A stretch of 57,761 bases of DNA from Chloroflexia bacterium (GCA_039810045.1 JBDHWF010000005.1:1-57761), one strand, 5' to 3'. Positions 35,001 to 48,274 are shown, numbered from the stretch's first letter. The notes: generated by a model from the letters alone, not told the origin. Program-made: numbers and translations.

Positions 35001-35323
35001 ACGTTGCCACGGATCGTCGTCTCCCCCATCCCGGCGTAGAGGACGTTCGGATCGGAAGGAGCCACCGCCAACGCGCCAACCGAGGCGGTCTTGAAGAAGC
35101 CGTCTGAACAGTTCTCCCAACTCAGGCCGCCATCAATCGTCTTCCAGACCCCACCACCCGTCGAGCCGAAATAGAAGGTTAGCCGATTGACGGGATCGCC
35201 AGCGACCGCCACCACGCGCCCGCCCCGAAACGGCCCAATATGCCGCCAGGATAACCCTTGTATTGTCGCCTCTTGCAGCGAGGCTGCTGTCTGTTGCGCC
35301 TTTGGATCAGACACTGCTATCAC
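32099..35323 (-). CDS. VPS10/sortilin-like BNR (Asp-box) repeat beta-propeller protein, often annotated as glycosyl hydrolase
   Basis: WRHIGPFRGGR, many S/T-x-D-G-G-x-T/S-W Asp boxes and a C-terminal helical domain; AAGGAGG RBS before GTG. Confidence 0.9.
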   Translation of the reverse strand: MIAVSDPKAQQTAASLQEATIQGLSWRHIGPFRGGRVVAVAGDPVNRLTFYFGSTGGGVWKTIDGGLSWENCSDGFFKTASVGALAVAPSDPNVLYAGMGETTIRGNVAHGDGVYGSTDGGKTWRHLGLAETRAIARVRIDPRDPNTVYVAALGHVWGPNAERGLYRSRDGGQSWQQILFRDERSGAIDLDIDPTNPRILYAAFWEAGRTPWTLTSGGPGSSLYKSTDGGDTWTELTNAPGLPKGVKGKIGVAVSPARPERVWALVEAEQGGFFRSDDGGATWTKLNEERELLQRAWYYAHVIADPQNPEVVWVPNVNNWRSIDGGKTFQAYPTPHGDNHDIWFDPRDSQRMIQGNDGGAVVSFNGGAAWSSIYNQATAEFYHVIADNRIPYRVHGAQQDNTTLSLPSRSDAGAITWAETFPVGGGESGYIAVRPDNPDIIFAGSYGGLLTRYDHSTRQSRNIAVWPENPIGWSAGDQQYRFQWTFPIMISPHDPNTLYVTSQYVHRSGDEGGTWEIISPDLSRNDQEKMGSSGGPITQDNTSVEYYGTIFAFAESPVQRDLFWAGSDDGLIHVSQDGGQSWQNVTPPADLLPEWALISIIEPSPHDAGTCYVAATRYKWDDLTPYLYKTTDFGQSWTRISAGIPDEQFTRAIRADPAKAGILYAGTEAGIWVSLNDGATWAPLGRNLPVVPIHDLVVKDHDLVLATHGRGFWILDDLTPLHQLAEQQANAAHLFTPRDTTRFLVPGRRPTLDPNQLRAYGNAGGLAVRTRVVPGPSGEKALGFLDAGHNPEPGITVYYYLPEAPKESLTLRFLDGAGQEIKSFTNTVTKEGQESEKKPDTHGAAPEPKPKMQAGLNRFVWNARYPDATAVPGAVFWAGGVTGPLAPPGRYTVELVVDGQQQNASFDFVKDPRAAANDEDLAAQFALLLQIRDKLTETHEAILMIRSLRQQAESWAERTAQTPQAEQVATAAKALGEALTTVERELIQQQSKSHEDPLNFPIRLNNKLAALTGVVGSADAAPTQGAQQVFADVVTRVDTQFEALEGILVTQLGAFNATMQEAQLPAIVPPTKKW

Positions 35324-35395: not shown

Positions 35396-35412
35396 GGTGT
35401 GAACGTGGACAG
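35396..35412 (+). repeat. 17-bp motif GGTGTGAACGTGGACAG, copy 1
   Basis: Exact match to the copies at 35429, 39612, 44778 and 47671. Confidence 0.97.
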
Positions 35413-35428
35413 GCAGTTGTAGTAGTTA

Positions 35429-35445
35429 CTGTCCACGTTCACACC
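35429..35445 (-). repeat. 17-bp motif, copy 2 (inverted; overlaps the SDR stop codon)
   Basis: CTGTCCACGTTCACACC on the plus strand. Confidence 0.97.
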
Positions 35446-36212
35446 GCAGTCCAACCACCATCAATCAGCAGGGTGTGGCCCGTGACCATATCTGAGGCAG
35501 CCGAGGCAAGGTAAACCACCCCACCAGCGATATCTTCTGGCTTCGCCAGTTGCCCAAGCGGAATCCGGCCCAGCACATCATCACGGAAAGCGGTATCTTC
35601 AAACATCGGGCGAGTCAGTGGTGTTTCGACAAATGTAGGGCCAATTGCGTTGACTCGCACGCCATACTGCGCCCACTCAAACGCCAACACCCGCGTCAGG
35701 TTCACTACCCCTGCTTTGCTGGAACAATACGCAGCGCGTTTCCAGTAGCCTACCACCCCCATCTGTGAGGCGATATTGACAATCTTGCCGCTTCCTTGCT
35801 TGATCATCACCCGCCCCACTGCCTGAGTCGTAAAGAACAGCCCTTTGAGATTAATATCCAGGACACGATCCCAGTCTTCTTCGGTAACATCGAGCGCAAG
35901 TTTCGGGATATTCACCCCGGCATTGTTCACCAGAATATCGATCTGTCCAAACTTGTCGATGGTAGTCTGCACCAGACCATCGATCAATTCTCGCTGCATG
36001 ACATCGAGCGGGACGACCACAGTTTCCGCACCATAGTCCTGCTGTGCCATCTTCGCCGTTGCCTCTGCCGCCTCAGTCTTCCCAGGCAGTTCGGTCAGCA
36101 CCAGTTGTGCCCCCGCCTGGGCCAGGGCTAACGCCGCTGCCTGCCCTAACCCCGTCCCTGTGCCTGTCACAATGGCGACTTTCCCCTCAACTCGCGCGCT
36201 TGGGAATTGCAT
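35439..36212 (-). CDS. Short-chain dehydrogenase (gluconate-5-DH/KduD-like)
   Basis: TGTGTGLG, NNAG, NIAS, YCSSK, VNAIGP, DGGWTA. Confidence 0.93.
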   Translation of the reverse strand: MQFPSARVEGKVAIVTGTGTGLGQAAALALAQAGAQLVLTELPGKTEAAEATAKMAQQDYGAETVVVPLDVMQRELIDGLVQTTIDKFGQIDILVNNAGVNIPKLALDVTEEDWDRVLDINLKGLFFTTQAVGRVMIKQGSGKIVNIASQMGVVGYWKRAAYCSSKAGVVNLTRVLAFEWAQYGVRVNAIGPTFVETPLTRPMFEDTAFRDDVLGRIPLGQLAKPEDIAGGVVYLASAASDMVTGHTLLIDGGWTAV

Positions 36213-36254
36213 CACTTCCTCCAATCACGATCGTCCCACAAAACTTGTCCAGCA

Positions 36255-36785
36255 TTACCACAGTTCCCCTTCACGCCATTCCGCCGTAATCTGGGCGGTC
36301 AGATCGAGTGGCGGCGTTTGTGGCGTCCGCATGATCATGATCTCCTCATCTGGTGTTGGCAGTAGCCCGGTGTCCGTGCGGATCGCGGTCGGGCCACGCC
36401 AATGCTGCCACCCCAAGCGCTCGTAGAACGGGGCGACGGCTGGGGAGAGCGCACAAAGCTCATAGTTGCCTGTTTGCTGGGCCACTTCCTGCATCACCAA
36501 CGTGCCATATCCCTGACCTTGCCAGCGCGGGGCAGTCGCCACCGCCTCGATATAGGCCGTTTGCAACGGTGCTATCCCCGCAGGCTGAAGCCACCGCGTG
36601 ACCCAACAGGCGTGGCTTACGAGTTCCTGCCCTACACGCAGCAAGATGTGGCGCGAACCAGGCAGGAGCGCAAAAAGCTGATCGAACGGTTCGGCAAAGG
36701 CAGCGGCGCACAATGCGATGATGGCCTCGCGTTCATCGTGGCCAAGGGCTGCTGCATCCTCAATCGTGATCGTGACTGTTGCCAT
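36255..36785 (-). CDS. GNAT acetyltransferase resembling aminoglycoside 2'-N-acetyltransferase AAC(2')-I
   Basis: YIEAVATAPRWQGQGYG, YELCALS, FYERLGW.HWRGPT, TP.E and the C-terminal L...I..EWR.GELW, matching the recalled AAC(2')-Ic pattern (LYASRGWLPWHGPT...CDWRAGDVW). Confidence 0.8.
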   Translation of the reverse strand: MATVTITIEDAAALGHDEREAIIALCAAAFAEPFDQLFALLPGSRHILLRVGQELVSHACWVTRWLQPAGIAPLQTAYIEAVATAPRWQGQGYGTLVMQEVAQQTGNYELCALSPAVAPFYERLGWQHWRGPTAIRTDTGLLPTPDEEIMIMRTPQTPPLDLTAQITAEWREGELW

Positions 36786-36905
36786 ACGCCCTTTCCGTCA
36801 ATCCTGTCTCTGGCCTTATACTAGGATTGCTTACGGCGGTCAATGATCGCCTGCTGACAGCGAGAGGGAACCGAGCCTGAGGGCTCACCACCGTGCGGAG
36901 GATCA

Positions 36906-38621
36906 ATGAACGGCGCAGAAATCCTGGTTGCGATGCTGAAGGCCTATGAGGTCGAGGTGATCTTTGGCGTGCCTGGGGATACGACCATGCCTCTTTACGA
37001 TGCACTCCACGCTGCCCGCGGTGAGATCAGGCATATTATGGCGCGTGATGAACGGTCGGCGGGCTTCATGGCCGACGCATACGCCCGCCTGACAAACAAG
37101 CCAGGAATCTGTGAAGGGCCTTCCGGCGGTGGGGCGACCTATATCGTCCCTGGTGTAGCCGAGGCGAACGGCTCATCAATCCCGGTGATCTGCTTCACTT
37201 CAGATATTCCACTCGCCGACGAAGATCGCGGCACGCTGACCGCGATCAATCAGCAAGAACTCCTCCAGGCCGCTACAAAGTGGAGCACGACCGTCAAGCG
37301 GGCGGACAAGATCCCCGAAACAGTGCGCCGCGCCTTCCGACAGGCCACGAGTGGCCGCCCAGGGGCAGTTCACGTTGTCTTACCGGAAGATATTCTGGTC
37401 GAAGAAGTAGCGAACCCGCAGATCTATGCTGAGCCTACCTGTATGCAGTATCCCTCATATCGCACGCGGGGTGCGGCGGAAGAAACCCGCCAACTCTATG
37501 ACCTGCTGTTACAAGCCGAGCGACCAGTGATTATTGCTGGTGGTGGCGCAGTTATCTCTGGCGCTTGGGATGAGCTGAACGAATTGGCGACGCTCCTCAA
37601 GATCCCGGTTGGTACCAGTATCAACGGCAAAGGAGCGCTGGCCGAAGATCACCCCTGGTCGATTGGCGTGATTGGCGGAAATGGCGGGAAGCCGGAAGCA
37701 AATGTAATCGTTGGTGAGGCCGATACTATCCTCTATGTTGGCACCCGCGTTAACTCGCTGATCACCTTGTCCCTGACCAACCCTGGCCCTGATGCGGGCA
37801 AAACAATCTTGCAGATCGACGCTGATCCCACCCAACTGGGCAACAATCTGCCTGCCACTGTGGCAGTCTGCGGTGACGCCAAACTCACCCTAGCAGAACT
37901 CGCAGCCTGGGCGCGTGAGGAACGCGGCAAGGTTGATGCGCCACCGTTACGCAGCGGGTGGGAACGCGCAGCCCTAGCGCAACGGCTTGCGCCATTCTGG
38001 GATGAGTTCGAGGCCAAGGGCCGCTCGGATGCCTACCCGATCAAGCCACAACGGATCTTCGCCGCCCTGGATCGAATTCTGCCGCACGCCAGCGTGATCG
38101 TTGCTGACCCTGGCACGATGACGCCATTTACCGCTGGCGCGTTTGAGATTCGCCGACCCGGTCGCTCGATCGTGATTCCCCGCGCACATGGGGGGCTGGG
38201 CTACGCGATCCCCGCTGTCGTTGGCGCGAAGATCGCCCGCCCGCACGAAACAGTCGTTTGTCTCTGTGGCGATGGTTCATTCGGGATGAGTGGCACAGAA
38301 CTGGAAACAATTGGTCGGCTCAATCTGCCAGTGACCTTGATTCATTTCAATAATGGCGCATTCGGCTGGATCAAGATGCTCCAGCATCTGTACTTTGACG
38401 ACCGTTTCTTCGGCGTGGACTTTACGCGCATTGACTATGCCAAAATTGCCGAAGGCTTTGGTGTCCGTGGAATCACGATCACCCATCCTGACCAGATCGA
38501 AGACGCGATTGGGGAGGCAACCAGGCGCAGTAGTCCCACCTTCATTGATGTGCAAACGGAGATTGAATTGACCGAAGTGCCACCAGTGGCGGCTTGGCAA
38601 AAAGCGCTGGCAGGTCGCTAA
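36906..38621 (+). CDS. Thiamine-diphosphate-dependent enzyme (acetolactate synthase-like)
   Basis: IFGVPG, RDE..AGFMADAYAR, GPSGGG, GDGSFGM...NNG TPP motif. Confidence 0.92.
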   Translation: MNGAEILVAMLKAYEVEVIFGVPGDTTMPLYDALHAARGEIRHIMARDERSAGFMADAYARLTNKPGICEGPSGGGATYIVPGVAEANGSSIPVICFTSDIPLADEDRGTLTAINQQELLQAATKWSTTVKRADKIPETVRRAFRQATSGRPGAVHVVLPEDILVEEVANPQIYAEPTCMQYPSYRTRGAAEETRQLYDLLLQAERPVIIAGGGAVISGAWDELNELATLLKIPVGTSINGKGALAEDHPWSIGVIGGNGGKPEANVIVGEADTILYVGTRVNSLITLSLTNPGPDAGKTILQIDADPTQLGNNLPATVAVCGDAKLTLAELAAWAREERGKVDAPPLRSGWERAALAQRLAPFWDEFEAKGRSDAYPIKPQRIFAALDRILPHASVIVADPGTMTPFTAGAFEIRRPGRSIVIPRAHGGLGYAIPAVVGAKIARPHETVVCLCGDGSFGMSGTELETIGRLNLPVTLIHFNNGAFGWIKMLQHLYFDDRFFGVDFTRIDYAKIAEGFGVRGITITHPDQIEDAIGEATRRSSPTFIDVQTEIELTEVPPVAAWQKALAGR

Positions 38622-39409
38622 GGGCGGGGGGCAGACCCATGGCGGCGTGGGCCGCCTTGTTGGGCGCGGCGCATCGATTGGTTCGCAAAGATCAGGTAGG
38701 TAATGACCAGAGTGCTGGCAAAGGCCCACCACTGAATGGTGTATGCCAGGTGCGAGCCACTGCTGAGATCGGGCGGCCCGACAGCACGCGGCAGGGGCTC
38801 CTTTGGCGCAACAGGGAGCCGCTGCACCCAATATGGGAGCAGTGGGTAGGGGACCATGGCCCCGATTGCCGCCAGATCAACCTGCGAAACAACCCCAGGC
38901 TCAGCGCTTGGGGTGCTTTGGGGTTGCGATTCATAGATCAGGCCCTCAAATGTGGCCTGATCATTTTGCTGATAAGCGCGCCGATTGGTCGCTTCCTGGT
39001 AGGGAATCCAGCCCCGGTCAACCAGCAGCACCTGTTCGGTGCCTGCAATCTGGAGCGGAGTCAGTAAGTGTACCCCTGCCTGCCCATCAAGGGAGCGGTA
39101 GCGCAGTTCAACTTCGTTGGCGTAATCCCAACGCCCAGAGACCTGTACCCGCCGATAGGTCAGGCTGGCAAGGTTGTTCGTTTGGATTGCCTGGGCATTC
39201 AAGGTGATCGGCGGTAGCGCCAATTGGCGCGAGATGGCGGCGTTCGCAGCCAATCGCCCCTGCCAACGACCAAACTGCCACCCGCCAAGCCACAGCATGA
39301 CACCTGTCGCCAGGATCACGACCAGCGTGGCGAGCAACCATCGCCCGTGCCACAACCTACGCCAGAAGTGCGGCACCAACGCAAAGCTGTTGCGCCGCTG
39401 CCTGCTCAC
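38618..39409 (-). CDS. SURF1 family protein
   Basis: LG.WQ..R, G.HLLTPL, LVDRGWIP, HLAYTIQWW. Start uncertain. Confidence 0.88.
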   Translation of the reverse strand: MSRQRRNSFALVPHFWRRLWHGRWLLATLVVILATGVMLWLGGWQFGRWQGRLAANAAISRQLALPPITLNAQAIQTNNLASLTYRRVQVSGRWDYANEVELRYRSLDGQAGVHLLTPLQIAGTEQVLLVDRGWIPYQEATNRRAYQQNDQATFEGLIYESQPQSTPSAEPGVVSQVDLAAIGAMVPYPLLPYWVQRLPVAPKEPLPRAVGPPDLSSGSHLAYTIQWWAFASTLVITYLIFANQSMRRAQQGGPRRHGSAPRP

Positions 39410-39611
39410 GCCATAGCCGCCATGGGGGGCCTGCTTCGTTCGTGGTGTTGATCCTAAACCCAACTGCTTTTACTCATTCATTGCGGACAACGATCCTGGG
39501 CCGCAAGGCCACATTGCCTTGCGGCAAGGACAGTATCACTATCCATATTCTATGGTAACTCGCCTGAATGTCCCAGAGGATCGGCGCGCCTTATGCGGCG
39601 AAGTGGCCTTT

Positions 39612-39628
39612 GGTGTGAACGTGGACAG
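39612..39628 (+). repeat. 17-bp motif, copy 3 (intergenic)
   Basis: GGTGTGAACGTGGACAG between the SURF1 and Lon-N genes. Confidence 0.97.
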
Positions 39629-39711
39629 CCAGCAGCAAGCAGATTACAGCGAGGGGGATAGTAGCGGGTCACGGGATATTTCCGTGGCGAGATTGCGAAG
39701 CGGCTACTGGC

Positions 39712-40392
39712 TTAGTTATCTTGCAGCAAGGCTGCTGCCCCCTGCACCTGATAGATCGCTGGGGCAGCGCCAAACTCTCGAAACATTCCTCGCTCTCGTC
39801 GCAATAAGCGTTGTTCCTCCAACAGGCGCATATCGGTTGAGAATGCTTCCAGTAAGCGTTGCTTCTCCCAGGGGTAGATCGGTAGATAATGCGCGACCAG
39901 ATAGGAAGCCGCCGTTGGATCATCAGGAAAGGCGAGCGGCTCACGCTGCGTGTTCGTTACCGTCGCCAGATCGTCAAGCATTCCTTCAAACTGTTCTTCG
40001 ACGTTGGCCCGCAAGATCTCCAGTCCCCTGCTATCCTGTTCCTCCTCTGAAAGAAGCTCCACCTGGGCAGTGAGGTATTCCAGTTCATACTGGCTCTCTA
40101 AAATCTGAAAGCGTGAGGTGCCACGAGTCACCAGGTTATAGCGACCATCATCCATACGGATATGTCGCACAATCCGCGCTACCGTGCCAACGGTATACGG
40201 CACTTCGCGGTTATGCGGCGTCACTCCTGGACTGACCAGCGCCACCCCAAATGTTCGATTCCCTTCCAGGCATCGCGCGATCATCGCTTTGTAGCGTTCT
40301 TCAAAGATGTGCAATGGCAGCGGCATCCCTGGAAAAAGAACGACATTGAGCGGAAAAATTGGAATGGTGAGGATTGTTGTTGGTTGTTCCAT
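39712..40392 (-). CDS. Stand-alone Lon N-terminal (substrate-binding, PUA-like) domain protein
   Basis: IPIFPLNVVLFPGMPLPLHIFEERY, VGTVARI, G..RF.I. Confidence 0.9.
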   Translation of the reverse strand: MEQPTTILTIPIFPLNVVLFPGMPLPLHIFEERYKAMIARCLEGNRTFGVALVSPGVTPHNREVPYTVGTVARIVRHIRMDDGRYNLVTRGTSRFQILESQYELEYLTAQVELLSEEEQDSRGLEILRANVEEQFEGMLDDLATVTNTQREPLAFPDDPTAASYLVAHYLPIYPWEKQRLLEAFSTDMRLLEEQRLLRRERGMFREFGAAPAIYQVQGAAALLQDN

Positions 40393-40561
40393 CGTACCAC
40401 CAGTATCTGCAAATGACTCTCCCTATTATACTCCCCCGCACAAATATCGTGCGGCGATCAGGCCACGCACCACCACTCCTGACAGCCATAAGCACCATAT
40501 ACTAGAATGAAATACTAGAATAAAGGAGCAAAGAACTTACGCTGTATCCACTGGGGAGGAG

Positions 40562-41242
40562 ATGACACAAGAACCACCAACCCAACAACGCTACCATTAT
40601 CCAGCGATCGCCGTTGATATGATCATCTTCACGATGGGCGACGACGATTTGCAGGTGTTGTTGGTGCAACGCCGTGGTCAACCATTCGCCGGGCAATGGG
40701 CGTTTCCTGGGGGCTTTGTTGACCCCGATGAATCGCTCGATGCTGCCGCCGTGCGTGAACTGCGCGAGGAAACCGCCGTCAGCGACATTTATTTGGAACA
40801 ACTCTACACCTTCGGCGAACCACAGCGCGATCCACGCGGGCGCGTGATCTCGGTCGCCTACTTTGCCCTGGTGCGTCAGCCGCCCGCCGTTACCAGCGGG
40901 GACGATGCCGCCGATGCCCAATGGTTTCCCTTACAGGCACTGCCACCGCTCGCCTTCGATCACGCCACGATTCTCGATTACGCCCTGGAACGGGTGCGGA
41001 ATAAGGTAGAGTACACCAATATTGTCTACAGCCTATTGCCAGCAACCTTCACGCTGACCGAATTACAACGTACCTATGAGATCATTTTGGGCCGCCAGAT
41101 TGATAAGCGCAATTTCCGCAAGAAGATCAGCTCGCTTGATCTCGTTGTTCCTACTGGTGATGTCCGTCGTGATGGGGCCCATCGTCCGGCCAAGCTCTAT
41201 CGCTTCCGCTCACGCGAACCACGGATTGTAGAAATCTTCTAA
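40562..41242 (+). CDS. NrtR-type Nudix/winged-helix regulator
   Basis: WAFPGGFV..ES..AA.RELREET, LEQLYTFG.P.RDPRGR, LAFDH, FTL.ELQ..YE.IL, NFRKK, HRPAKLY. Confidence 0.9.
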   Translation: MTQEPPTQQRYHYPAIAVDMIIFTMGDDDLQVLLVQRRGQPFAGQWAFPGGFVDPDESLDAAAVRELREETAVSDIYLEQLYTFGEPQRDPRGRVISVAYFALVRQPPAVTSGDDAADAQWFPLQALPPLAFDHATILDYALERVRNKVEYTNIVYSLLPATFTLTELQRTYEIILGRQIDKRNFRKKISSLDLVVPTGDVRRDGAHRPAKLYRFRSREPRIVEIF

Positions 41243-41413
41243 GCACAACTTCGCCAATTGGCTGTCAGCACAAGGCTCATTTCCTGCTTGTAGCAATTGA
41301 TAATAGACATTCCCATAACCTTGTACCTGCGTAGACTATTCGACATGAATTGACATATTCGCTATATTTCCCCGATCAAACAGCGAGCGCTGCGCGTGAA
41401 GGGAGGAATGCTG

Positions 41414-42616
41414 ATGCAGATTCGTCGCTGGCGACGCACTGTACGACTGAGCGCTACCGCGATCATCGTACTGCTCTTGCTTGCCCCTGGCGCAACAGCA
41501 TTGGCCGCGCCAATCACCCGCGAACAAGCGCTGGTTCCCCCAATCGTCCCATTCCCTGGCGCAGTCACCTTTCGTCTTTTTGCCACCCGTGAAGGGCTGG
41601 TTGGCGGGATCACCGCGAATGGGCATCAGATCAAAGAGCGCGATCGCTTTGTTGCCCTGCCTTCGAAGGCAGCACTGGCGAAGAAAGATGGCTACGACAA
41701 GCAAGTATTGGTCTCCTATAAAGGGCGTCAGGCAGTTGCGCCAGTCTGGGATGTTGGACCGTGGAATATCAAAGATAACTATTGGGATCCACCAGCAGCC
41801 CGGGTAACGGGCAACGGCTTGCCGCGTGGTTGGCCCGCTGCCCAGGCCCAGTTCTTCGACAAATATAATGGCGGGATTAGCGATAAGGGCTATGTCGTGC
41901 GTAACCCCGCCGGCATCGATCTGGCTGATGGCCTGTTTTGGGATGACCTGAAAATGACTGATGGCGATTGGGTCGATGTCACCTTCCTCTGGCTCAGCCC
42001 CGGTGGAGCCTACTTCAGCCAACCAATTGACCCACAAGTGCGCCAGCCAATCGCCCCTTTCCCTTCAACAGCAACAAAGCGCTATTTCAGCGAAACCGGC
42101 CATAGTCTGGCCGACCCATTCAAGCAGTATTGGGAGCAACACGGCGGCCTCGCACAGTTCGGCTTCCCGCTAACCGAGCCATACCGCGAGCGCAGCATCG
42201 ATGATGGCAAAGAGTATCTGGTGCAATATTTTGAGCGGGCGCGGTTTGAGTATCACCCCGAGAGCGCCAACCCTGAGTATCAGGTGTTACTCGGCTTCTT
42301 GGGGAAAGTGTTTCATCCACCTGATCCACCAGTTCCCGCCAAGCCCAACGCCCGCTTCTTCCCAGAAACGGGGCACAATCTCGATGGGCTCTTTCGGAGC
42401 TATTGGGAAGCGAATGGTGGTCTGGCGATCTACGGTTTGCCAATCAGCGAGGAGATCAGGGAGGTCAGCCCAATCGACGGCAAGCCATACACGGTGCAGT
42501 ATTTTGAACGGGCGCGGTTCGAGGCACACCCAGAATACGCCGCACCGTACAATGTTTTACTCGGCCATCTTGGTCGCCAATTGCTCGACCTACGTGGGGC
42601 TTTCCCCGTGCGCTAG
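41414..42616 (+). CDS. Secreted protein: RlpA/double-psi beta-barrel-like domain plus two Chloroflexi-type surface repeats
   Basis: Signal peptide; TANG..FVALP...VWDVGPW...GIDL; two repeats (Y/F)F.ETGH.L...F..YW...GGL...G.P..E...VQYFERARFE.HPE. Confidence 0.8.
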   Translation: MQIRRWRRTVRLSATAIIVLLLLAPGATALAAPITREQALVPPIVPFPGAVTFRLFATREGLVGGITANGHQIKERDRFVALPSKAALAKKDGYDKQVLVSYKGRQAVAPVWDVGPWNIKDNYWDPPAARVTGNGLPRGWPAAQAQFFDKYNGGISDKGYVVRNPAGIDLADGLFWDDLKMTDGDWVDVTFLWLSPGGAYFSQPIDPQVRQPIAPFPSTATKRYFSETGHSLADPFKQYWEQHGGLAQFGFPLTEPYRERSIDDGKEYLVQYFERARFEYHPESANPEYQVLLGFLGKVFHPPDPPVPAKPNARFFPETGHNLDGLFRSYWEANGGLAIYGLPISEEIREVSPIDGKPYTVQYFERARFEAHPEYAAPYNVLLGHLGRQLLDLRGAFPVR

Positions 42617-43240
42617 GTGGGCCTGATCATTACGCCGTAGAAATGTCGCAGGCTGTCCTGCTATCCACGCAGCAGGGTCAATGGTGACTTCACTTACGGC
42701 GCAGTTGCCAATCCCCATGTGGGCATTCGGCCATTGATCGCCTGGTTCACGCAAGAGGTAACTGATCGCCCAGGCCAAGGCCCCACCATGCGAAACAAGC
42801 ACGACTGCCTGAGCATCGTCGAGATGTTGCGTAATCAGGTTGTCCAGTTCTGCAACGATGCGGGCGGCAAAGATCGCGCCACTTTCTCCACCAGGCCAGG
42901 TAAAGGCGACCCCATCTTGCTGGAACGCCGCCAGTTGATCGGGGAAACACTCTGCCCACTGCGCGAAGGTCAGGCCGGCGGCCTGGCCTACATTGATTTC
43001 AGCCAGGGCGGGCCGGGGCTGAGGCGTCAGGCCCGTTGCTGCCCCGATGATCTGTGCCGTCTCAAAGGCCCGTGCAAACGGACTACTGTAGAGGCTGCCC
43101 AGATCGCCACGCTGCGCAAGCGCAGCAGCGAGCGCCCGCGCTTGCTGGCGGCCCTGATCAGTGAGCGGATCATGCTCATCTTGGAGTTGGTGGGCAAGGT
43201 TGCCCGTTGTTTCACCATGCCGAACAAGGAGCAGGCGCAC
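42590..43240 (-). CDS. Histidine phosphatase family protein (paralog 2)
   Basis: RHGE, SSP..RA..TA, AEIN.G, SHGG. Confidence 0.92.
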   Translation of the reverse strand: MRLLLVRHGETTGNLAHQLQDEHDPLTDQGRQQARALAAALAQRGDLGSLYSSPFARAFETAQIIGAATGLTPQPRPALAEINVGQAAGLTFAQWAECFPDQLAAFQQDGVAFTWPGGESGAIFAARIVAELDNLITQHLDDAQAVVLVSHGGALAWAISYLLREPGDQWPNAHMGIGNCAVSEVTIDPAAWIAGQPATFLRRNDQAHLAHGESPT

Positions 43241-43242
43241 GC

Positions 43243-43914
43243 TCAGACCTCAGTTGATTCCTCAGCCATTTCGCCTAATGCCAGCACCTCCTCTGGCTCA
43301 GGCGACAGATGGCTAATTTCATTGTGGCAGACAAAGGTAACGGCTTGCTCATCTTCATCAATGGTGACTTCGGTCAGTGAGCAGTTGTGCAATTGATGAC
43401 GGGGCCATTGCTCACGCGGTTCTCGTAGCAAATGATCGATCATCCAGCCCAAGGCGCCGCCATGTGAGACAACGATGACCCCGCCCCCTTCCAGCCGATG
43501 CGCACTAATAATCGCATCAACCGCTGCGGCTACCCGCGCAGCCAATTGCAGGCCACTCTCCCCCCCAGGCCAAACGAAACTTGGCCCCAGTTCGTTGAAT
43601 TGCTCGGCTAGGTCGGGGTGGGCAGCGGTCCATTCATCGAAGGTCATGCCAGCAGCGTCACCCAGGTTAATCTCAGCCAGGTCGTCTAACGGAATGGGGC
43701 GCAGGCCGATTGCTGCGCCAATCGTCTGCGCCGTCTCCAGAGCGCGGGCGGCAGGGCTGCAATAGAGTACTCGCAGGTCAGCCCGTTCGGCCAGGAGTGC
43801 GGCAATCTCGCCAGCCTGGATGCGTCCACGCTCGGTAAGATGGTCGTCGTCCATTTGCAGCCGACGGCTCTGATTACCAACCGATTCACCATGCCGTACC
43901 AGTAGTAGTTGCAT
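43243..43914 (-). CDS. Histidine phosphatase family protein (paralog 1)
   Basis: RHGE, CSP..RA..TA, AEIN.G, SHGG. Confidence 0.92.
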   Translation of the reverse strand: MQLLLVRHGESVGNQSRRLQMDDDHLTERGRIQAGEIAALLAERADLRVLYCSPAARALETAQTIGAAIGLRPIPLDDLAEINLGDAAGMTFDEWTAAHPDLAEQFNELGPSFVWPGGESGLQLAARVAAAVDAIISAHRLEGGGVIVVSHGGALGWMIDHLLREPREQWPRHQLHNCSLTEVTIDEDEQAVTFVCHNEISHLSPEPEEVLALGEMAEESTEV

Positions 43915-43922
43915 TGCTATCC

Positions 43923-44666
43923 TTATTCCTCGCTGAGGATCACCCCGCCAGCCGGTGTCACCATAATTGTATGCTCAAACTGCGCGGCCCAACCACCATC
44001 GAGAGTACGCACACTCCACCCATCCGCGTCGAAATCAACATCAGGTGCGCCTTCGACCAGAATAGGCTCAATGGTAATCACCAGCCCATCTTCCAAGATT
44101 GGCCCCGTCCCAGGGCGGCCAACAAATGGCACATCGGGGTCTTCATGCAAGTTGTGGCCCAAACCATGCCCAGTAAATCCCCGAACCAGGTTGAAGCCGC
44201 GCCGTTCGCCGTAACGCTGCATCGCGGCGCTAATATCGCCAACGCGCTTCCCCGTTACCACCGCCCGAATGCCCGCCTCCATTGCGCCATGTGTTGCGGC
44301 GATCAGCCGTCGCCGTCTGGCCCCAATCGCCCCAACTGGCACTGTTACGTTGGCATCGCCACAATACCCAGCCAGGCGCATTCCCGCGTCGATACTAATA
44401 ATGTCGCCTGCCTGCAATTGCTGGTCGCCCGGAACACCGTGCAGCACGACATCGTTAACCGAGGTGTTGATGCAGCCAGGGAAACCTGCCTCAACGTTAA
44501 AGATTGGCTCTGCGCCGATCCGCGCCAGGTAGTTGGCGGCGTGAGTATCCAGCGTCGCCGTGGTAATCCCCGGTTCAACCAGCGCCGCCAACTCCTGCAA
44601 CAGGCTCATTGTGGCGCGGTTCGCTCGCCGCAATCCGGTCAGATCTGCCAAATCTTTGATAACCAT
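43923..44666 (-). CDS. map: Type I methionine aminopeptidase
   Basis: SVND.VLHGVP, DIISID..GYCGD, GHGLG..LHEDP, TIEP, AQFEHT; all metal ligands present. Confidence 0.93.
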   Translation of the reverse strand: MVIKDLADLTGLRRANRATMSLLQELAALVEPGITTATLDTHAANYLARIGAEPIFNVEAGFPGCINTSVNDVVLHGVPGDQQLQAGDIISIDAGMRLAGYCGDANVTVPVGAIGARRRRLIAATHGAMEAGIRAVVTGKRVGDISAAMQRYGERRGFNLVRGFTGHGLGHNLHEDPDVPFVGRPGTGPILEDGLVITIEPILVEGAPDVDFDADGWSVRTLDGGWAAQFEHTIMVTPAGGVILSEE

Positions 44667-44777
44667 GAAAATCTCCCTCGCCCGTATCGTGCCCTATGCA
44701 GGGAGGATAGTAGCACGAACGGCCATTTTCTACTTCTCGCACGAGTTGGATACGAATTACGGTCCGCCGCTGCCTCT

Positions 44778-44794
44778 GGTGTGAACGTGGACAG
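44778..44794 (+). repeat. 17-bp motif, copy 4 (intergenic)
   Basis: GGTGTGAACGTGGACAG between the divergent map and M16 genes. Confidence 0.97.
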
Positions 44795-44884
44795 TCACCA
44801 CAACCCTATCAAACGCGTTACTTTCCGTGCGACAATACGATCTCTTGCTGTTATCTAAAGGCCTGAGCGAGCCAGAGAGGAATT

Positions 44885-47563
44885 GTGAGAAAGATGAACG
44901 ATAGCCCAACCCGCCTGACAACGTTAGCGAACGGCCTGACGATCTTGACCCATGAGACCCATACAGCCCCCGTCGCCACGTTTTGGGTCTGGTACGGAGT
45001 GGGCGCACGCAATGAAATACCAGGATATACGGGCATCTCCCACTGGGTTGAGCATATGCTTTTCAAGGCTACGCCCAAGCTCGGTGCTGGGGAAATATTT
45101 CGGCTGGTCAACAAGAACGGCGGGACGCTGAATGGATTTACCTCGCTCGACTATACCGCCTATTATGAACCCCTTCCTGCCGATAAACTCGACCTCGCAA
45201 TCACGATTGAAGCAGATCGGATGATCAACGCTCGTTTCGACCCTGCTGAAGTGGCTTCTGAGCGCACAGTCATTATCTCGGAAAAGCAGGGCGGCGAAAA
45301 TTATCCGGCCACCCACCTGCGCGAAACAACAGTCGCCGCCGCTTTTCGGATTCATCCGTATCGGCAGGGAGTCATTGGGTATCTCAGTGATCTGCAAGCG
45401 ATCACGCGTGATGACCTCTATCACCATTATCAAACCTATTACGCACCAAATAACGCGACCGTCGTAGCTGTGGGCGATTTCCAGACGGAGGAATTGCTCG
45501 CCAAGATTGAATCTGCCTTCGGGGCGATCCCTCGTGGCGGTGCAATACCGCTCGTCCGCTCGGTAGAGCCAGCCCAAGAAGGTGAACGACGGGTGTTGGT
45601 TCGTCGTCCAGGGCCATTACCGCAATTTCTGGCGTCCTATCATGCTCCAGCAGTGACCAGCCCTGATGTTTTTCCGCTGATGGTGCTGGATGCGATCCTC
45701 AGTGGGGCTGGGGCGATGGGGATGTCGGGCGGTGGGGCGAGCCTGGGGCGATCATCACGCCTCTACCGCGCGCTCGTTGAAACGGAGCTTGCATCCAGTG
45801 CCTCGAGCAGTTTCAGTCTGATGAAGGATCCGTACCTCTTTAGCCTCTCGGCTGGGCTGCGCCCCAATGTATCATTGGAACACGTTGAGCAGGTCTTCTT
45901 TGAGCAGGTTGATCAACTGCGAAGCCAACCCCCCACTGATGAAGAGCTGGCCCGCGCCCTCAAAGGACTACGTGCCCAATTCGCCTACGCCAGTGAAGGG
46001 GTAACCAGTATTGCCTACTGGCTCGGCAGTATGAATACGATTAATACCTATACTATGTATGAGCAATTCTTACCTCAACTTGCCACAGTTACCGCTGCCG
46101 ATGTACAGCGAGTGGCGCAGCAATACCTCACCCCAGACAACCGCACGGTAGGGCAATTTATCCCTACCGCTGATGGCGGCAATGCCGGGACACCAGCAGC
46201 CGCGAGTTACTGGCCGCTGCAAGAATATCGCTGGCTACAGCAGCCACCAGTTAACGCAGCAGCCACGCCGACTGAGCCAGCGTCTGGTAAGCCCACCCAC
46301 GTAGCGCTTGAACGGCAGACCCTGCCTAATGGCATTGTCGTCCTGGGCAATGAACGACTAGAGTCGCCAGCGGTAGTCGTGCGGGCGCGGATGCGTGCTG
46401 GGGCCTTCTATGATACGCAGGCGACTGAAGGGTTAGCGCGGCTTACTGCACTAATGTTGCAACGCGGCACAGCAAATCATAGCTTTGCCGAACTCAATGC
46501 CTTAACTGATGCATTAGGGGCATCAATTGGCGTGGACCCTGGGCGGATCGTAATTGACCTGCGCGTGCGCTGTCTGGTCGAGGATTTCGAGCAGATGGTG
46601 GAGTTGTTGGCTGATCTGCTACAACGGCCTACCTTCCCACAGGTTGAACTCGAGAAGGTGCGTGGGCAAACCCTGACCGCGATTCTCCAGGGTGATCAAG
46701 ATACTGGGACGCTGGCCGAGCGTGGTTTGCGCACCAACGCATACCCTGCTAATCACCCCTACGCCCGCTCCGTGATTGGCACCAAAGAGTCAGTGATCGC
46801 GCTCGACCGCGCGGCGCTAGTCGAATTCCATCAAGCATATTATCGGCCCGATCTACTTTCTATCTCAGTCGTTGGTGGGGTGCCGTTTGCCGAAGCGCTT
46901 GAGGTAATCACGACCCACTTCGGACAGTGGCAGGTACCTGGACCACAGCCCACCTTAGTGATCCCACCAGCCGCTATGCCCACTGCCCGTCAGTGGCATG
47001 AAGCCAACCTAGCGGGGAAATCACAGTCAGATATTGCGATGGGTCATCCTTCAATTCCCCGCACCGACCCTGACTATTATGCGCTGGAACTTGCCAATAT
47101 GATTCTCGGTCGCTTTGGGCTTGGCGGGCGATTAGGCAAGAGTGTACGGGAAAAACAGGGGCTGGCCTACTTCACTGGCAGTAGCCTTGCCGGAGGGTTG
47201 GGGCCAGGAGCCTGGGCTGCCCGCGCTGGGGTCGCACCAGAAAACGTTGAGCAGGCAGTGGACAGTATTTTGGCCGAGATTGAGCAGATACGGACAGCAC
47301 TGGTGAGTGCAGAAGAAATGACTGATGCGCTCGATTATCTGACTGGCTCACTACCGCTGGGCTTAGAAAGCCAGGACGGTGTAGCACGGCTCGCCCTGGA
47401 TATTGAGTTCTACAACCTGGGGCTGGACTACCTGGATCGCTATGCCGCTATTCTGCGGGCAGTCACGCGTGAACAGGTGCAGCAAGCAGCGCAGCAGCAT
47501 CTGCACCCCGACCACATGGTAATCTCCGTCGCTGGGCCACCACGTACGCCCAAAGCCGAGTAA
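44885..47563 (+). CDS. M16 zinc peptidase with two fused M16 modules
   Basis: HWVEHMLFK (HxxEH) with a downstream E in the first half; the second half lacks the motif. Confidence 0.92.
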   Translation: MRKMNDSPTRLTTLANGLTILTHETHTAPVATFWVWYGVGARNEIPGYTGISHWVEHMLFKATPKLGAGEIFRLVNKNGGTLNGFTSLDYTAYYEPLPADKLDLAITIEADRMINARFDPAEVASERTVIISEKQGGENYPATHLRETTVAAAFRIHPYRQGVIGYLSDLQAITRDDLYHHYQTYYAPNNATVVAVGDFQTEELLAKIESAFGAIPRGGAIPLVRSVEPAQEGERRVLVRRPGPLPQFLASYHAPAVTSPDVFPLMVLDAILSGAGAMGMSGGGASLGRSSRLYRALVETELASSASSSFSLMKDPYLFSLSAGLRPNVSLEHVEQVFFEQVDQLRSQPPTDEELARALKGLRAQFAYASEGVTSIAYWLGSMNTINTYTMYEQFLPQLATVTAADVQRVAQQYLTPDNRTVGQFIPTADGGNAGTPAAASYWPLQEYRWLQQPPVNAAATPTEPASGKPTHVALERQTLPNGIVVLGNERLESPAVVVRARMRAGAFYDTQATEGLARLTALMLQRGTANHSFAELNALTDALGASIGVDPGRIVIDLRVRCLVEDFEQMVELLADLLQRPTFPQVELEKVRGQTLTAILQGDQDTGTLAERGLRTNAYPANHPYARSVIGTKESVIALDRAALVEFHQAYYRPDLLSISVVGGVPFAEALEVITTHFGQWQVPGPQPTLVIPPAAMPTARQWHEANLAGKSQSDIAMGHPSIPRTDPDYYALELANMILGRFGLGGRLGKSVREKQGLAYFTGSSLAGGLGPGAWAARAGVAPENVEQAVDSILAEIEQIRTALVSAEEMTDALDYLTGSLPLGLESQDGVARLALDIEFYNLGLDYLDRYAAILRAVTREQVQQAAQQHLHPDHMVISVAGPPRTPKAE

Positions 47564-47592
47564 GGAAGCAAATAGCGGTAGCGGTTCGGAAG

Positions 47593-47621
47593 ATCAGGGC
47601 TGGCTCAGAGCCAGCCCTGAT
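47593..47621. terminator. 14-bp inverted repeat after the M16 gene, at the left edge of the origin region
   Basis: ATCAGGGCTGGCTC-a-GAGCCAGCCCTGAT. Confidence 0.65.
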
Positions 47622-47630
47622 GTATGGTGA

Positions 47631-48180
47631 TTATCCACACCTGTGGAAAAATGGTGGATAGAATCTGTCACTGTCCACGTTCACACCGCTGGTTAATCTC
47701 ATCGACGATTGCTTATCCACAGCATGATCAACTTATCCACAGGGAATGATCAGTTATCCACAAGCCAATTGGTTGCTCGGCATCGTTCTAACAGCTTTGG
47801 GCAGGGAAATGTGTCATTTCCATTGGATTATTGCCAAATTTGTCATCGTAACTGCTTCTCGATCTAGAACAGCAATGATCATAATGATTGTGGATAACTC
47901 TGGGGAAAGCAGGGGATAAGTTCCCAAATCTGGGGATAAGGTTGGGTATAGTCCGTGGGTGGTTTGTGGAGAAGATCGCTTCGCACTACGCCGTTCTCCA
48001 CAGGCCCACCAGTTGTGGACAAGTTATCCCCAGGCTTTGGCAAAGGATTTTCCTTGTCATTGCTAAGGAAATGAGCGTTATCCACCGTATCCACACCCCC
48101 TACGATCGAATACTGGTTTAATCCTGATCTTTAATCAAATAAATAAAGATGGTCGAATCCTTCGTGGCAAAAGTGGATAA
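47631..48180. other. Probable chromosomal replication origin (oriC)
   Basis: Five perfect TTATCCACA boxes (47631, 47713, 47733, 47754, and 47889 reverse). About nine 1-mismatch boxes (47642, 47931, 47965, 47994, 48014, 48024, 48078, 48087, 48172). AT-rich tract at 48117-48150. Gene-free. Confidence 0.85.
47671..47687 (-). repeat. 17-bp motif, copy 5 (inside the oriC candidate)
   Basis: CTGTCCACGTTCACACC between DnaA boxes. Confidence 0.97.
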
Positions 48181-48274
48181 CGTTACGAACGAACTAGCCC
48201 CTTGCTATACTCACCATCCGATATACAGAGAACCCTTCCAGGCTGCTAATAGCCGAAGGGAAAGGGAGACAGCA

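What the first reader, a model, noticed from the sequence alone, without database searches (positions are those of the whole stretch)
35396..47687. Five identical copies of an unrecognised 17-bp motif leading into oriC: candidate non-canonical centromere / origin-anchoring system
Seen: GGTGTGAACGTGGACAG occurs exactly at 35396(+), 35429(-), 39612(+), 44778(+) and 47671(-, inside the DnaA-box cluster). All are intergenic or at a gene end, in unrelated gene contexts, in both orientations, within about 12 kb left of the origin. I found none in the first 35 kb or the last 10 kb by eye. A given 17-mer has odds of about 1 in 1.7e10 per site, so this is not chance. The core TGTGAAC|GTGGACA is a 14-bp pseudo-palindrome around ACGT, and the reverse strand also reads as tandem GTCCAC-GTTCAC. 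Known: parS (TGTTTCACGTGAAACA) and RacA ram sites are short palindromes clustered near oriC, but this motif does not fit the parS consensus. Inference: the binding site of a lineage-specific ParB with altered specificity, or of an unknown origin-organising protein. No parAB is in the window.
Basis: partly seen in the sequence, partly recalled or inferred. Interest (0 to 1): 0.92.

Follow-up and report, generated by a model that had tools for sequence, protein, structure and literature searches.

The report
Orphan 16-bp site array around oriC
A 16-base DNA word kept letter-for-letter in about ten copies around the replication origin of one uncultured Thermomicrobiales genus is real and under selection. 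It is probably not the ParB centromere, because the genus keeps a separate parS-like pair, so it most likely marks the origin region for a protein not yet identified.

Summary
GGTGTGAACGTGGACAG occurs exactly five times in the window, and nowhere else in it even with 3 mismatches (0.2 expected).

Genome-wide there are 7 distinct exact copies and 2 near copies. The flanks are unrelated, so it is not a MITE or REP element.

The 16-nt core GGTGTGAACGTGGACR is present at 9-10 copies in all four species of this genus and in no other genus of the family or order sampled. Copies sit at syntenic positions in several species. In the best-assembled congener, 8 of 9 copies lie within 38 kb on both sides of the only DnaA-box cluster. 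Orientation is not conserved. Some copies are inside genes or at gene 3' ends.

The interpretation needs correcting. The genus does keep a parS-like pair, TGTAAAACGTGAAACA x2, identical in three species. It lies at the ancestral parS locus, on another contig. The DNA-reading helix of the chromosomal ParB is that of relatives that use canonical parS. A second ParAB pair has its own palindrome.

So the 16-mer is an orphan. My best reading (about 0.45) is a ParB-independent array of binding sites for an unidentified protein that marks the origin region, similar in logic to RacA-ram. Rivals are extra ParB sites, a regulon, and DnaA control.

The parts
35396..35412 (+). Motif copy 1. It is the left member of an inverted pair, 73 bp upstream of the start of the BNR/sortilin-like gene.
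   Evidence: Exact match. The pair is conserved at the same BNR/SDR intergenic position in G003 (7801+/7842-), and one copy is upstream of the G001 BNR fragment. The spacer is not conserved (16, 24 and 36 nt), so the pair is two independent sites, not a MITE.
35429..35445 (-). Motif copy 2. It is the right member of the inverted pair and overlaps the last codons of the SDR gene (stop codon at 35439-35441).
39612..39628 (+). Motif copy 3. It lies between the 3' end of the Lon-N-domain gene and the start of the SURF1 gene.
   Evidence: The same intergenic position is occupied in G003 (13267) and G001 (11899). The distance to the SURF1 start varies from 150 to about 1100 bp, so the site is not fixed relative to a promoter.
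44778..44794 (+). Motif copy 4. It lies in the divergent intergenic region between the M24 and M16 peptidase genes.
   Evidence: The alignment of this intergenic region from three species shows the motif as one of three conserved islands. In G003 the motif is inverted in place.
47671..47687 (-). Motif copy 5. It lies inside the left part of the DnaA-box cluster.
   Evidence: G001 has a copy at the same border between oriC and the M16 gene (L047:3093).
47631..48180 (.). Probable oriC. This is the only DnaA-box cluster in the genome.
   Evidence: There are 14 boxes with at most 1 mismatch in 600 bp. No other cluster of 4 or more boxes exists in the 4.16-Mb assembly. GC skew changes from negative to positive at about 48 kb. 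dnaA is on another contig, C73.

Best explanation
The motif is a genus-specific array of high-information binding sites with the 16-nt core GGTGTGAACGTGGACR. There are about 9-10 copies per genome, spread over a few tens of kb on both sides of oriC. It is separate from the parS-like pair that the chromosomal ParB most likely uses.

I infer that a sequence-specific DNA-binding protein, not yet identified, occupies these sites. I also infer that occupancy at this chromosomal position is what matters, not regulation of particular genes. The role would be to mark, compact or anchor the origin region. That would make it a second, ParB-independent, centromere-like system, comparable in logic to RacA binding ram sites in Bacillus.

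Shown here:
- the sites exist;
- they are conserved and selected;
- they cluster at the origin;
- orientation is not conserved at at least one shared position;
- a separate parS-like pair exists.

Inferred:
- that a protein binds the sites;
- that this protein is not ParB1;
- that the role is structural.
For: 1. Non-chance and rarity. There are 5 exact copies in 57.8 kb against 0.2 expected, and 7 exact plus 2 near copies in 4.16 Mb.

2. Discrete sites. The flanks are unrelated right up to the motif edges in 24 sites from four species.

3. Genus-wide conservation. There are 9-10 copies in each of G000-G003. The other 3 genomes of the family have at most one 1-mismatch hit to the 14-nt core, which is chance level. 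Of the 34 order-level relatives, 3 have a single 1-mismatch hit and 31 have none.

4. Origin clustering.
- In G002, 8 of 9 copies lie between 5 kb left and 33 kb right of its DnaA-box cluster, on one 136-kb contig.
- G001 has the order ROK gene, oriC, site, M16 gene, site, then further genes and a third site on one contig.
- The window cluster is the only DnaA-box cluster in G000, and GC skew flips there.

5. Phylogenetic footprint. The same intergenic positions are occupied in species whose flanking proteins are 59-90% identical, while the surrounding intergenic DNA has diverged.

6. Position rather than promoter.
- One site is in the middle of a citE-like gene in all four species, where it encodes CVNVD.
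- One is near the 3' end of a metallophosphoesterase gene.
- One is 17 bp after a HAD gene's stop codon in G001 (about 10 bp in G000).
- One in G002 lies between convergent genes.
- The M24/M16 site is inverted in G003.

7. ParB1 is already accounted for.
- The parS-like pair ATGTAAAACGTGAAACAT is identical at six sites in three species. It is syntenic with the parS of the sister genera, and in G006 that parS lies 4.4 kb from a DnaA-box cluster.
- The ParB1 recognition helix equals that of relatives that use canonical parS.

8. ParB2 has its own palindrome. The ParB-like protein on C159 is found only in G000.
Against: - No binder was identified.
- No DNA-binding gene with the right distribution across genomes was found near the sites.
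- The genus-specific MarR next to one site is missing from G002, which still has 9 sites.
- Several sites lie 70-150 bp upstream of gene starts, and one lies between two conserved promoter-like islands. A regulatory role at those sites is not excluded.
- The assemblies are fragmented MAGs. For G000, the origin-proximity of contigs C12 and C28-C164-C274 rests on synteny with G002, not on a closed genome.
- All evidence is comparative. Nothing shows binding.
Confidence: 0.45

Rival explanations
1. The sites are extra loading sites for the chromosomal ParB (ParB1). On this reading ParB1 in this genus recognises both the parS-like pair and this shortened, asymmetric word, and the array enlarges the centromere from 2 sites to about 11.
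For: - The distribution is what parS arrays look like in species with many parS sites: about 10 nearly invariant 16-mers near oriC, in both orientations, some inside genes.
- The centre AACGTG is shared with the genus parS-like site TGTAAAACGTGAAACA.
- The right arm GTGGACA is the parS half GTGGAACA minus one base. This is read directly from the sequence.
- Relatives have only 1-3 parS sites.
- ParB1 has one genus-specific change next to the known specificity position, A177 to S/C, where all 26 other sequences have A.
Against: - Only 7-8 of 16 positions match parS.
- Both arms are one base shorter than in parS, which shifts the outer TGT contacts.
- ParB1 keeps every residue that is invariant across the order. 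At the four positions I recall as setting ParB versus Noc specificity, it carries residues also seen in relatives that use canonical parS. The position numbering is from memory.
- A conserved parS-like pair already exists for ParB1.
Confidence: 0.15
2. The sites are operators of a genus-specific transcription factor, for example the MarR encoded next to one site. On this reading the origin clustering is a by-product of where its target genes lie.
For: - Several sites are 70-190 bp upstream of gene starts (BNR, M24/M16, and SURF1 in G000).
- The M24/M16 site sits between two conserved promoter-like islands.
- The core is a 5-of-7 pseudo-palindrome, TGTGAAC/GTGGACA.
- A MarR gene 356-565 bp from one site has orthologues only in this genus, at 68-72% identity; elsewhere only 27-31% paralogues are found.
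Against: - In G002, 8 of 9 sites lie in 38 kb around oriC, next to functionally unrelated genes.
- Some sites are mid-gene, at gene 3' ends or between convergent genes.
- The distance to the SURF1 start ranges from 150 to about 1100 bp.
- Nearly all 16 positions are invariant at nearly all sites. That is unlike operator sets.
- G002 has the sites but no detectable MarR orthologue, and the HAD-motif-MarR-P450 block is absent beside its priA gene.
Confidence: 0.15
3. The sites are accessory sites for replication control. Each would be a pair of weak DnaA-box-like elements (TGTCCAC, GTTCACA), or a site for an initiation regulator, that titrates or modulates DnaA around oriC. This would resemble datA or the DnaA-box clusters of Bacillus.
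For: - One copy lies inside the DnaA-box array in G000 and another at its edge in G001.
- Each half matches TTATCCACA at 6 of 9 positions. This is read directly from the sequence.
- All copies are origin-proximal.
Against: - The boxes in this oriC are TTATCCACA-type. The motif differs from it at positions that I recall as important for DnaA contact.
- The two box-like halves are offset by 6 bp, not about 11 bp.
- DnaA binding would not require all 16 bases to be invariant.
- Sister genera have oriC without the motif.
Confidence: 0.07
4. The sites are relics or targets of a mobile element or a site-specific recombinase, such as terminal repeats or attachment sites.
For: - The word is asymmetric and conserved exactly.
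- One inverted pair exists per genome.
Against: - The flanks are unrelated and the pair spacers are not conserved.
- No transposase or integrase lies next to the sites.
- The sites are held at syntenic positions across four species.
- There are only about 10 copies, all around oriC.
Confidence: 0.03

Closest known systems
Chromosomal parS/ParB centromere (consensus TGTTNCACGTGAAACA)
   Same: - Both are 16-bp, nearly invariant sites.
- Both have a handful to a few dozen copies, concentrated near oriC.
- In both, sites occur in either orientation, between genes or inside them, and are conserved among related species.
   Different: - The sequence matches parS at only 7-8 of 16 positions.
- The word is asymmetric, and each arm is one base shorter than in parS.
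- The genus has a separate conserved parS-like pair and a ParB with an ordinary recognition helix.
RacA-ram origin-anchoring system of Bacillus subtilis (from my own knowledge: about 25 copies of the 14-bp inverted repeat TGACGCCGGCGTCA spread around oriC and bound by RacA)
   Same: It is a second family of specific sites, independent of ParB, that marks the origin region alongside parS. Function depends on position, not on the neighbouring genes.
   Different: - The sequence is unrelated.
- This motif is not a true palindrome.
- There are fewer sites, in a narrower span of tens of kb.
- No RacA-like protein was identified, and the lineage is not known to sporulate.
Noc/NBS and other offshoots of ParB with switched specificity
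   Same: The idea that a ParB-family protein could evolve a new 16-bp target.
   Different: - NBS differs from parS at only two positions per half and keeps the palindrome.
- Noc sites are spread over most of the chromosome.
- Here, no ParB paralogue with the right distribution exists. ParB2 has its own palindrome, and the ParB-like protein on C159 is confined to G000.
Plasmid iterons, or the heptad sites of omega-type ribbon-helix-helix centromere proteins
   Same: The motif can be read as an asymmetric unit built from two adjacent 6-7-bp subsites, GTGAAC and GTGGAC. It is associated with an origin.
   Different: Iterons and heptads form tight tandem arrays of 4-10 units. Here, single two-subsite units are scattered over tens of kb.

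Membership tests
Canonical chromosomal parS | 16-bp palindrome matching TGTTNCACGTGAAACA with at most 1-2 mismatches | tested here: not met
   Aligned on the central CG, the motif matches at 7-8 of 16 positions. This is read directly from the sequence. No match to parS with at most 1 mismatch exists in G000.
Canonical chromosomal parS | Sites clustered in the origin-proximal region | tested here: met
   Five sites lie within 12.3 kb of the only DnaA-box cluster in G000. In G002, 8 of 9 sites lie within 38 kb around its oriC.
Canonical chromosomal parS | It is the cognate site of the chromosomal ParB, with no other parS present and a ParB helix that fits the site | tested here: not met
   A separate conserved pair, TGTAAAACGTGAAACA, lies at the ancestral parS locus. 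The ParB1 helix is like that of relatives that use canonical parS. The only genus-specific change in the DNA-binding region is A177 to S/C.
Canonical chromosomal parS | Bound by ParB, with CTP-dependent loading | not testable with these tools
   This needs EMSA, ChIP or a clamp-loading assay.
RacA-ram type origin anchor | A family of specific sites distinct from parS, spread around oriC, whose function depends on position | tested here: met
   The sites track the origin region, and at the M24/M16 position the site is inverted in one species.
RacA-ram type origin anchor | Presence of a RacA homologue and the GC-rich 14-bp inverted repeat | not tested
   By inspection, the motif is unrelated to the ram sequence as I recall it. 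I did not search for RacA.
REP, MITE or other dispersed repeat | Many copies spread along the genome, with extended conserved flanks or a hairpin unit | tested here: not met
   There are 9 sites per genome. The flanks are unrelated beyond 16-17 nt. The spacers of the inverted pair are not conserved.
Transcription-factor operator set (regulon) | Promoter-proximal placement at a roughly fixed distance from gene starts, with sites varying around a consensus | tested here: inconclusive
   Some sites are 70-190 bp upstream of gene starts. Others are mid-gene, at 3' ends, or between convergent genes. The sites are almost invariant.
DnaA box | 9-mer TTATCCACA with at most 1-2 mismatches | tested here: not met
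   The best reading of either half gives 6 of 9 matches. A scan at up to 1 mismatch does not pick up the motif.

The most novel reading that the evidence does not exclude
The 16-mer is the recognition site of a previously undescribed, ParB-independent protein that marks the origin region in Chloroflexota. It would be a second chromosomal centromere or anchor system working beside a reduced two-site parS. It arose within one genus and is readable as an asymmetric, 32-bit address.
Probability: 0.35. Interest if true: 0.8.

Novelty: new variant of a known kind. Interest (0 to 1): 0.55.

Why it matters
Apart from parS/ParB, very few families of specific sites are known to mark bacterial origin regions. 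RacA-ram is the main example.

This case offers a clean, highly specific bait for finding another such system. The array is 16 bp, almost invariant, conserved across four species and origin-centred, and it has no assignable protein. The lineage (Thermomicrobiales, Chloroflexota) has unstudied chromosome biology. In it, parA, parB, parS, dnaA and oriC are all unlinked. In complete genomes of related genera, the second ParB lies on a second large contig.

The case also corrects an easy mistake. The window lacks parS, but the genus keeps a degenerate, asymmetric parS pair elsewhere. That pair is itself a useful natural variant for work on ParB specificity.

If the binder turns out to be ParB1 after all, it would be the first chromosomal ParB shown to load at a shortened, non-palindromic site.

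Tried and rejected
1. "No parS in the genome": rejected. A scan at up to 1 mismatch found none. The two-mismatch hits on C28 turned out to be a conserved pair, identical in three species and syntenic with the parS of the sister genera.

2. ParB1 with altered specificity: not supported by the 29-sequence alignment.

3. ParB2 (C175) as binder: rejected. Its operon is flanked by its own palindrome TTACCAAASTTTGGTAA, which has 4 copies in the genome and none near the motif.

4. The ParB-like protein on C159 as binder: rejected. It is found only in G000 and sits in a mobile-element context.

5. MarR beside the C28/C164 site as binder: it is genus-specific. It is absent from G002, which keeps 9 sites, and the block is missing beside the G002 priA gene. 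It remains only a weak candidate.

6. A small centromere-binding protein downstream of the chromosomal parA: none is present. parA lies alone between thrS and guaB.

7. DNA-binding genes in the window: only an NrtR and an OmpR-type response regulator with its kinase. Neither fits a contiguous two-hexamer site.

8. MITE or hairpin reading of the inverted pair: rejected because the spacers are not conserved.

9. An analogous array with a different word near oriC in sister genera or relatives: none found in the loci fetched. The repeated words in G004 and G002 are heptanucleotide tandem repeats.

10. Literature search on parS in Chloroflexi and on non-canonical parS: nothing relevant.

11. Earlier notes of this scan, searched by sequence: nothing.

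12. A search for the G002 orthologue of the BNR gene, to test whether sites follow genes or position: uninformative, because the gene has many paralogues.


Full report
**1. The observation**

The 17-mer GGTGTGAACGTGGACAG occurs exactly at 35396(+), 35429(-), 39612(+), 44778(+) and 47671(-). Allowing up to three mismatches adds nothing in the window. Dinucleotide-preserving shuffles give a mean of 0.2 matches, and none of 100 reaches five.

My gene map comes from ORFs and Pfam hits:
- BNR/sortilin-like gene, 32099-35323(-)
- SDR, 35439-36224(-)
- SURF1, 38618-39463(-)
- Lon-N-domain protein, 39712-40392(-)
- M24 peptidase, 43923-44666(-)
- M16 peptidase, 44885-47563(+)
- ROK kinase, 48149-49270(+)

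On this map all five copies fall between genes. Copy 2 overlaps the last codons of the SDR gene. Copy 5 lies among the DnaA boxes.

**2. Is the neighbour really oriC?**

The stretch 47.6-48.2 kb holds 14 DnaA boxes with at most one mismatch. It is the only place in the 4.16-Mb assembly with four or more boxes in 600 bp. GC skew is mostly negative to its left and positive to its right, with the cumulative minimum at about 48 kb. dnaA lies on another contig, C73. This agrees with an earlier first-reader note on the same stretch.

**3. Distribution across the genome**

The whole assembly (274 contigs) has eight exact hits: five in the window, one at the end of C28, and two on C164. There are also two near copies on C12. 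The end of C28 overlaps the start of C164, and the end of C164 overlaps C274. C28:33373 and C164:63 are therefore one site. The true count is seven exact copies plus two variants.

The flanks are unrelated immediately outside the word. This rules out a MITE or REP element.

**4. Conservation**

I searched 40 relatives.
- The 16-mer (up to 1 mismatch) is found at 6-10 copies in all four genomes of the window's genus.
- It is absent from the three other genomes of the family.
- Among 34 genomes of other families in the order, three have a single 1-mismatch hit each and the rest have none.
- The 14-nt core gives 9-10 copies per genome of the genus. The other family genomes give at most one 1-mismatch hit each, which is chance level.

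The only organisms that appear more than once are uncultured Thermomicrobiales MAGs. This also names the lineage.

Across 24 sites in four species the conserved unit is GGTGTGAACGTGGACR. Position 17 and everything beyond it vary.

**5. Position**

G003:C128 is collinear with the window from the BNR gene to the M16 gene. It carries the inverted pair at the BNR/SDR junction, a site between the SURF1 and Lon-N genes, and a site between M24 and M16.

G001:C255 has, on one contig: ROK, DnaA-box cluster, site, M16, site, M24, further genes, Lon-N, site, SURF1.

G002 is the best-assembled genome. Eight of its nine copies are on one 136-kb contig, from 5 kb left to 33 kb right of its DnaA-box cluster.

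The G000 contigs that carry the remaining sites have orthologous genes on that same G002 stretch. The HAD-adjacent site C164:6254 corresponds to G002:C315:19781. The region of the citE-like gene on C12 (site C12:20020) maps next to G002:C315:43770.

The site family therefore follows the origin region.

**6. Evidence that position matters rather than promoters**

- The site in the middle of the citE-like gene encodes CVNVD. It is kept in G000, G001 and G003 while nearby synonymous positions differ. G002 has a 1-mismatch copy (C315:43770) at the position that this synteny points to, so I count all four species.
- A second coding copy, also read as CVNVD, lies near the 3' end of a metallophosphoesterase gene.
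- One site is 17 bp after a HAD gene's stop codon in G001 and about 10 bp after it in G000.
- One G002 site lies between convergent genes.
- The distance from the Lon-N/SURF1 site to the SURF1 start ranges from 150 to about 1100 bp.
- In the alignment of the M24-M16 intergenic region, the motif is one of three conserved islands. In G003 it is inverted in place.
- There is also turnover. G001 and G003 have sites at positions that are empty in G000.

**7. The parS question**

Most genomes of the other families in the order carry 1-3 canonical parS sites. In the complete or near-complete ones, these sites lie 5-8 kb from a small DnaA-box cluster and far from parB.

The window's genus has no match at up to one mismatch, apart from one TGTTCCACGTGGAACA in G002.

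The two-mismatch hits in G000 are two identical 19-mers on C28, 2 kb apart. A targeted scan shows exactly two copies of TGTAAAACGTGAAACA, 2.0-2.9 kb apart, in G000, G001 and G003. The extended block ATGTAAAACGTGAAACAT is identical at all six sites, and the flanks are unrelated.

This locus is syntenic with the parS-like sites of the sister genera:
- G005: TGTAACACATGAAACA and TGTTCCACATGAAACA
- G006: TGTTTTACGTGAAACA, 4.4 kb from a DnaA-box cluster

The G002 parS-like site lies on the contig syntenic with C28.

So the genus keeps a degenerate, asymmetric parS pair at the ancestral place.

**8. The ParB proteins**

ParB1 (C57, 298 aa) aligns with 28 orthologues. All 53 columns that are invariant across the alignment are retained in this genus. 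These include the arginine, asparagine and glycine-histidine positions of the DNA-binding region. Only two columns separate the genus from all the others: position 30, and A177 to S/C just after the RLLx motif. Relatives with almost the same helix, such as GRSRVSVTNTLRLL, have canonical parS.

ParA (Soj) is encoded alone on C17, between thrS and guaB.

A ParA2-ParB2 operon on C175 has 65.7% GC, against 58.3% for the genome. It is flanked by the palindrome TTACCAAASTTTGGTAA, which occurs four times in the assembly.

A third ParB-like protein, on C159, sits among relaxase-like, UvrD and primase genes. It is found only in G000.

Each ParB-family protein therefore either has a better candidate site than the 16-mer or is not shared by the genus.

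**9. Search for the binder**

Pfam scans of the window genes show only two DNA-binding proteins: an NrtR regulator, and an OmpR-type response regulator with its kinase. The unannotated proteins show no obvious DNA-binding region.

A MarR gene 356-565 bp from the C28/C164 site has orthologues only in this genus. G002 lacks it. It also lacks the whole HAD-motif-MarR-P450 block beside priA, yet keeps nine sites. G002 is only 83% complete, so this is not a firm exclusion.

No binder can be named.

**10. Reading**

The data fit best with an array of binding sites that marks the origin region, is independent of ParB1, and is recognised by an unidentified protein.

The asymmetry is strictly conserved: TGTGAAC on one side against TGTCCAC on the other, and a conserved GG on one side only. 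Almost all 16 positions are invariant. This suggests a reader that is not a simple symmetric dimer. It could be a monomer with two reading heads, two tandem subunits on GTGAAC and GTGGAC, or a heterodimer. This step is inference.

The rivals are:
- extra ParB1 sites (0.15);
- a regulon (0.15);
- DnaA-related replication control (0.07);
- a relic of a mobile element (0.03).

**11. Comparison with known systems**

In distribution the array behaves like a multi-copy parS set. In logic it behaves like the RacA-ram system, which I describe from my own knowledge.

It fails the sequence test for parS, for ram and for DnaA boxes. It fails the cognate-ParB test for parS. I therefore do not file it as a member of any of these families.

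**12. Verdict**

This is a real, selected, origin-centred family of sites confined to one uncultured genus.

The weaker claim, the site of an unknown origin-organising protein, is the best current reading but is unproven.

Interest is moderate to high. The bait is precise and the experiments are simple, but all evidence is comparative and comes from fragmented MAGs.

Noticed in passing
Outside the window: G000 contig C28:14564-14582 and 16563-16581; also G001:C623:5875 and 8818, and G003:C382:13886 and 16823: A conserved parS-like pair, ATGTAAAACGTGAAACAT, with one perfect parS half and one degenerate half. It is identical at six sites in three species and sits at the locus that holds parS in the sister genera. 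It is probably the real ParB1 loading site.
   Followed up: yes
Outside the window: G000 contigs C175:4788 and 6706, C177:296, C97:326: The palindrome TTACCAAASTTTGGTAA flanks a ParA2-ParB2 operon on a contig with 65.7% GC, against 58.3% for the genome. It is likely the partition site of a second replicon or plasmid. In complete genomes of other genera in the order, the ParB2-type gene lies on a second large contig.
   Followed up: partly
window 47631-48180: oriC is detached from dnaA, which is on contig C73. It is also detached from dnaN, parA (C17) and parB (C57). It is the only DnaA-box cluster in the assembly, and GC skew flips here.
   Followed up: yes
window 44667-44884: Besides the motif, the M24-M16 intergenic region has two other islands conserved in three species: GATAGTAnCAnGAA near M24 and CCGTGCGACAATA near M16. 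They are probably promoter or leader elements of the divergent peptidase genes.
   Followed up: no
Outside the window: G000 contig C159:2745-4022: A ParB-like N-terminal domain protein with a distinct helix-turn-helix, next to relaxase-like, UvrD and DnaG-type primase genes. It is absent from all 20 relatives searched. It is probably part of an integrated or plasmid-like mobile element.
   Followed up: partly
L041 (G002:C315, 20-40 kb), and L045 and L046 (G004:C111): Heptanucleotide tandem repeats in intergenic DNA of a congener and a sister genus: (GACTCAC)n, (GACGTTC)n/(TTCGACC)n and (CGCTCCA)n. One such array lies just upstream of the M16 orthologue in G004.
   Followed up: no
Relatives G014, G018, G022, G026, G030 (family f5, genus g11): These genomes lack canonical parS at up to 1 mismatch. 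Their ParB recognition helix reads GKNRTTVANGIRLL instead of GKSRxAVANxLRLL. This may be a second, independent drift of the ParB/parS pair in the order.
   Followed up: no
L034 (G040:C1:2589400-2609300), positions 17458, 17534, 19643, 19720: AAGCCCACTGAAGGG occurs four times, as two inverted pairs, 7.5-10 kb from the parS of this relative. By its contig sizes I take G040 to be Sphaerobacter-like. Nature unknown.
   Followed up: no
window 29367-30719 and 24745-26973: Two large proteins without Pfam hits. One is a 450-aa coiled-coil protein with basic repeats and a C-terminal membrane anchor. The other is a 742-aa protein with a long acidic region and one membrane span. Both lie in the origin region.
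   Followed up: no
L044 (G002:C2:2907-2922): A perfect palindromic parS variant, TGTTCCACGTGGAACA, lies inside the 3' end of a histidine-kinase gene, where it encodes VPRGT. A weaker site, TGTTTCACACGAAACA, lies 860 bp further on. The same palindrome occurs once in each of two genomes of another family (G035 and G039).
   Followed up: partly
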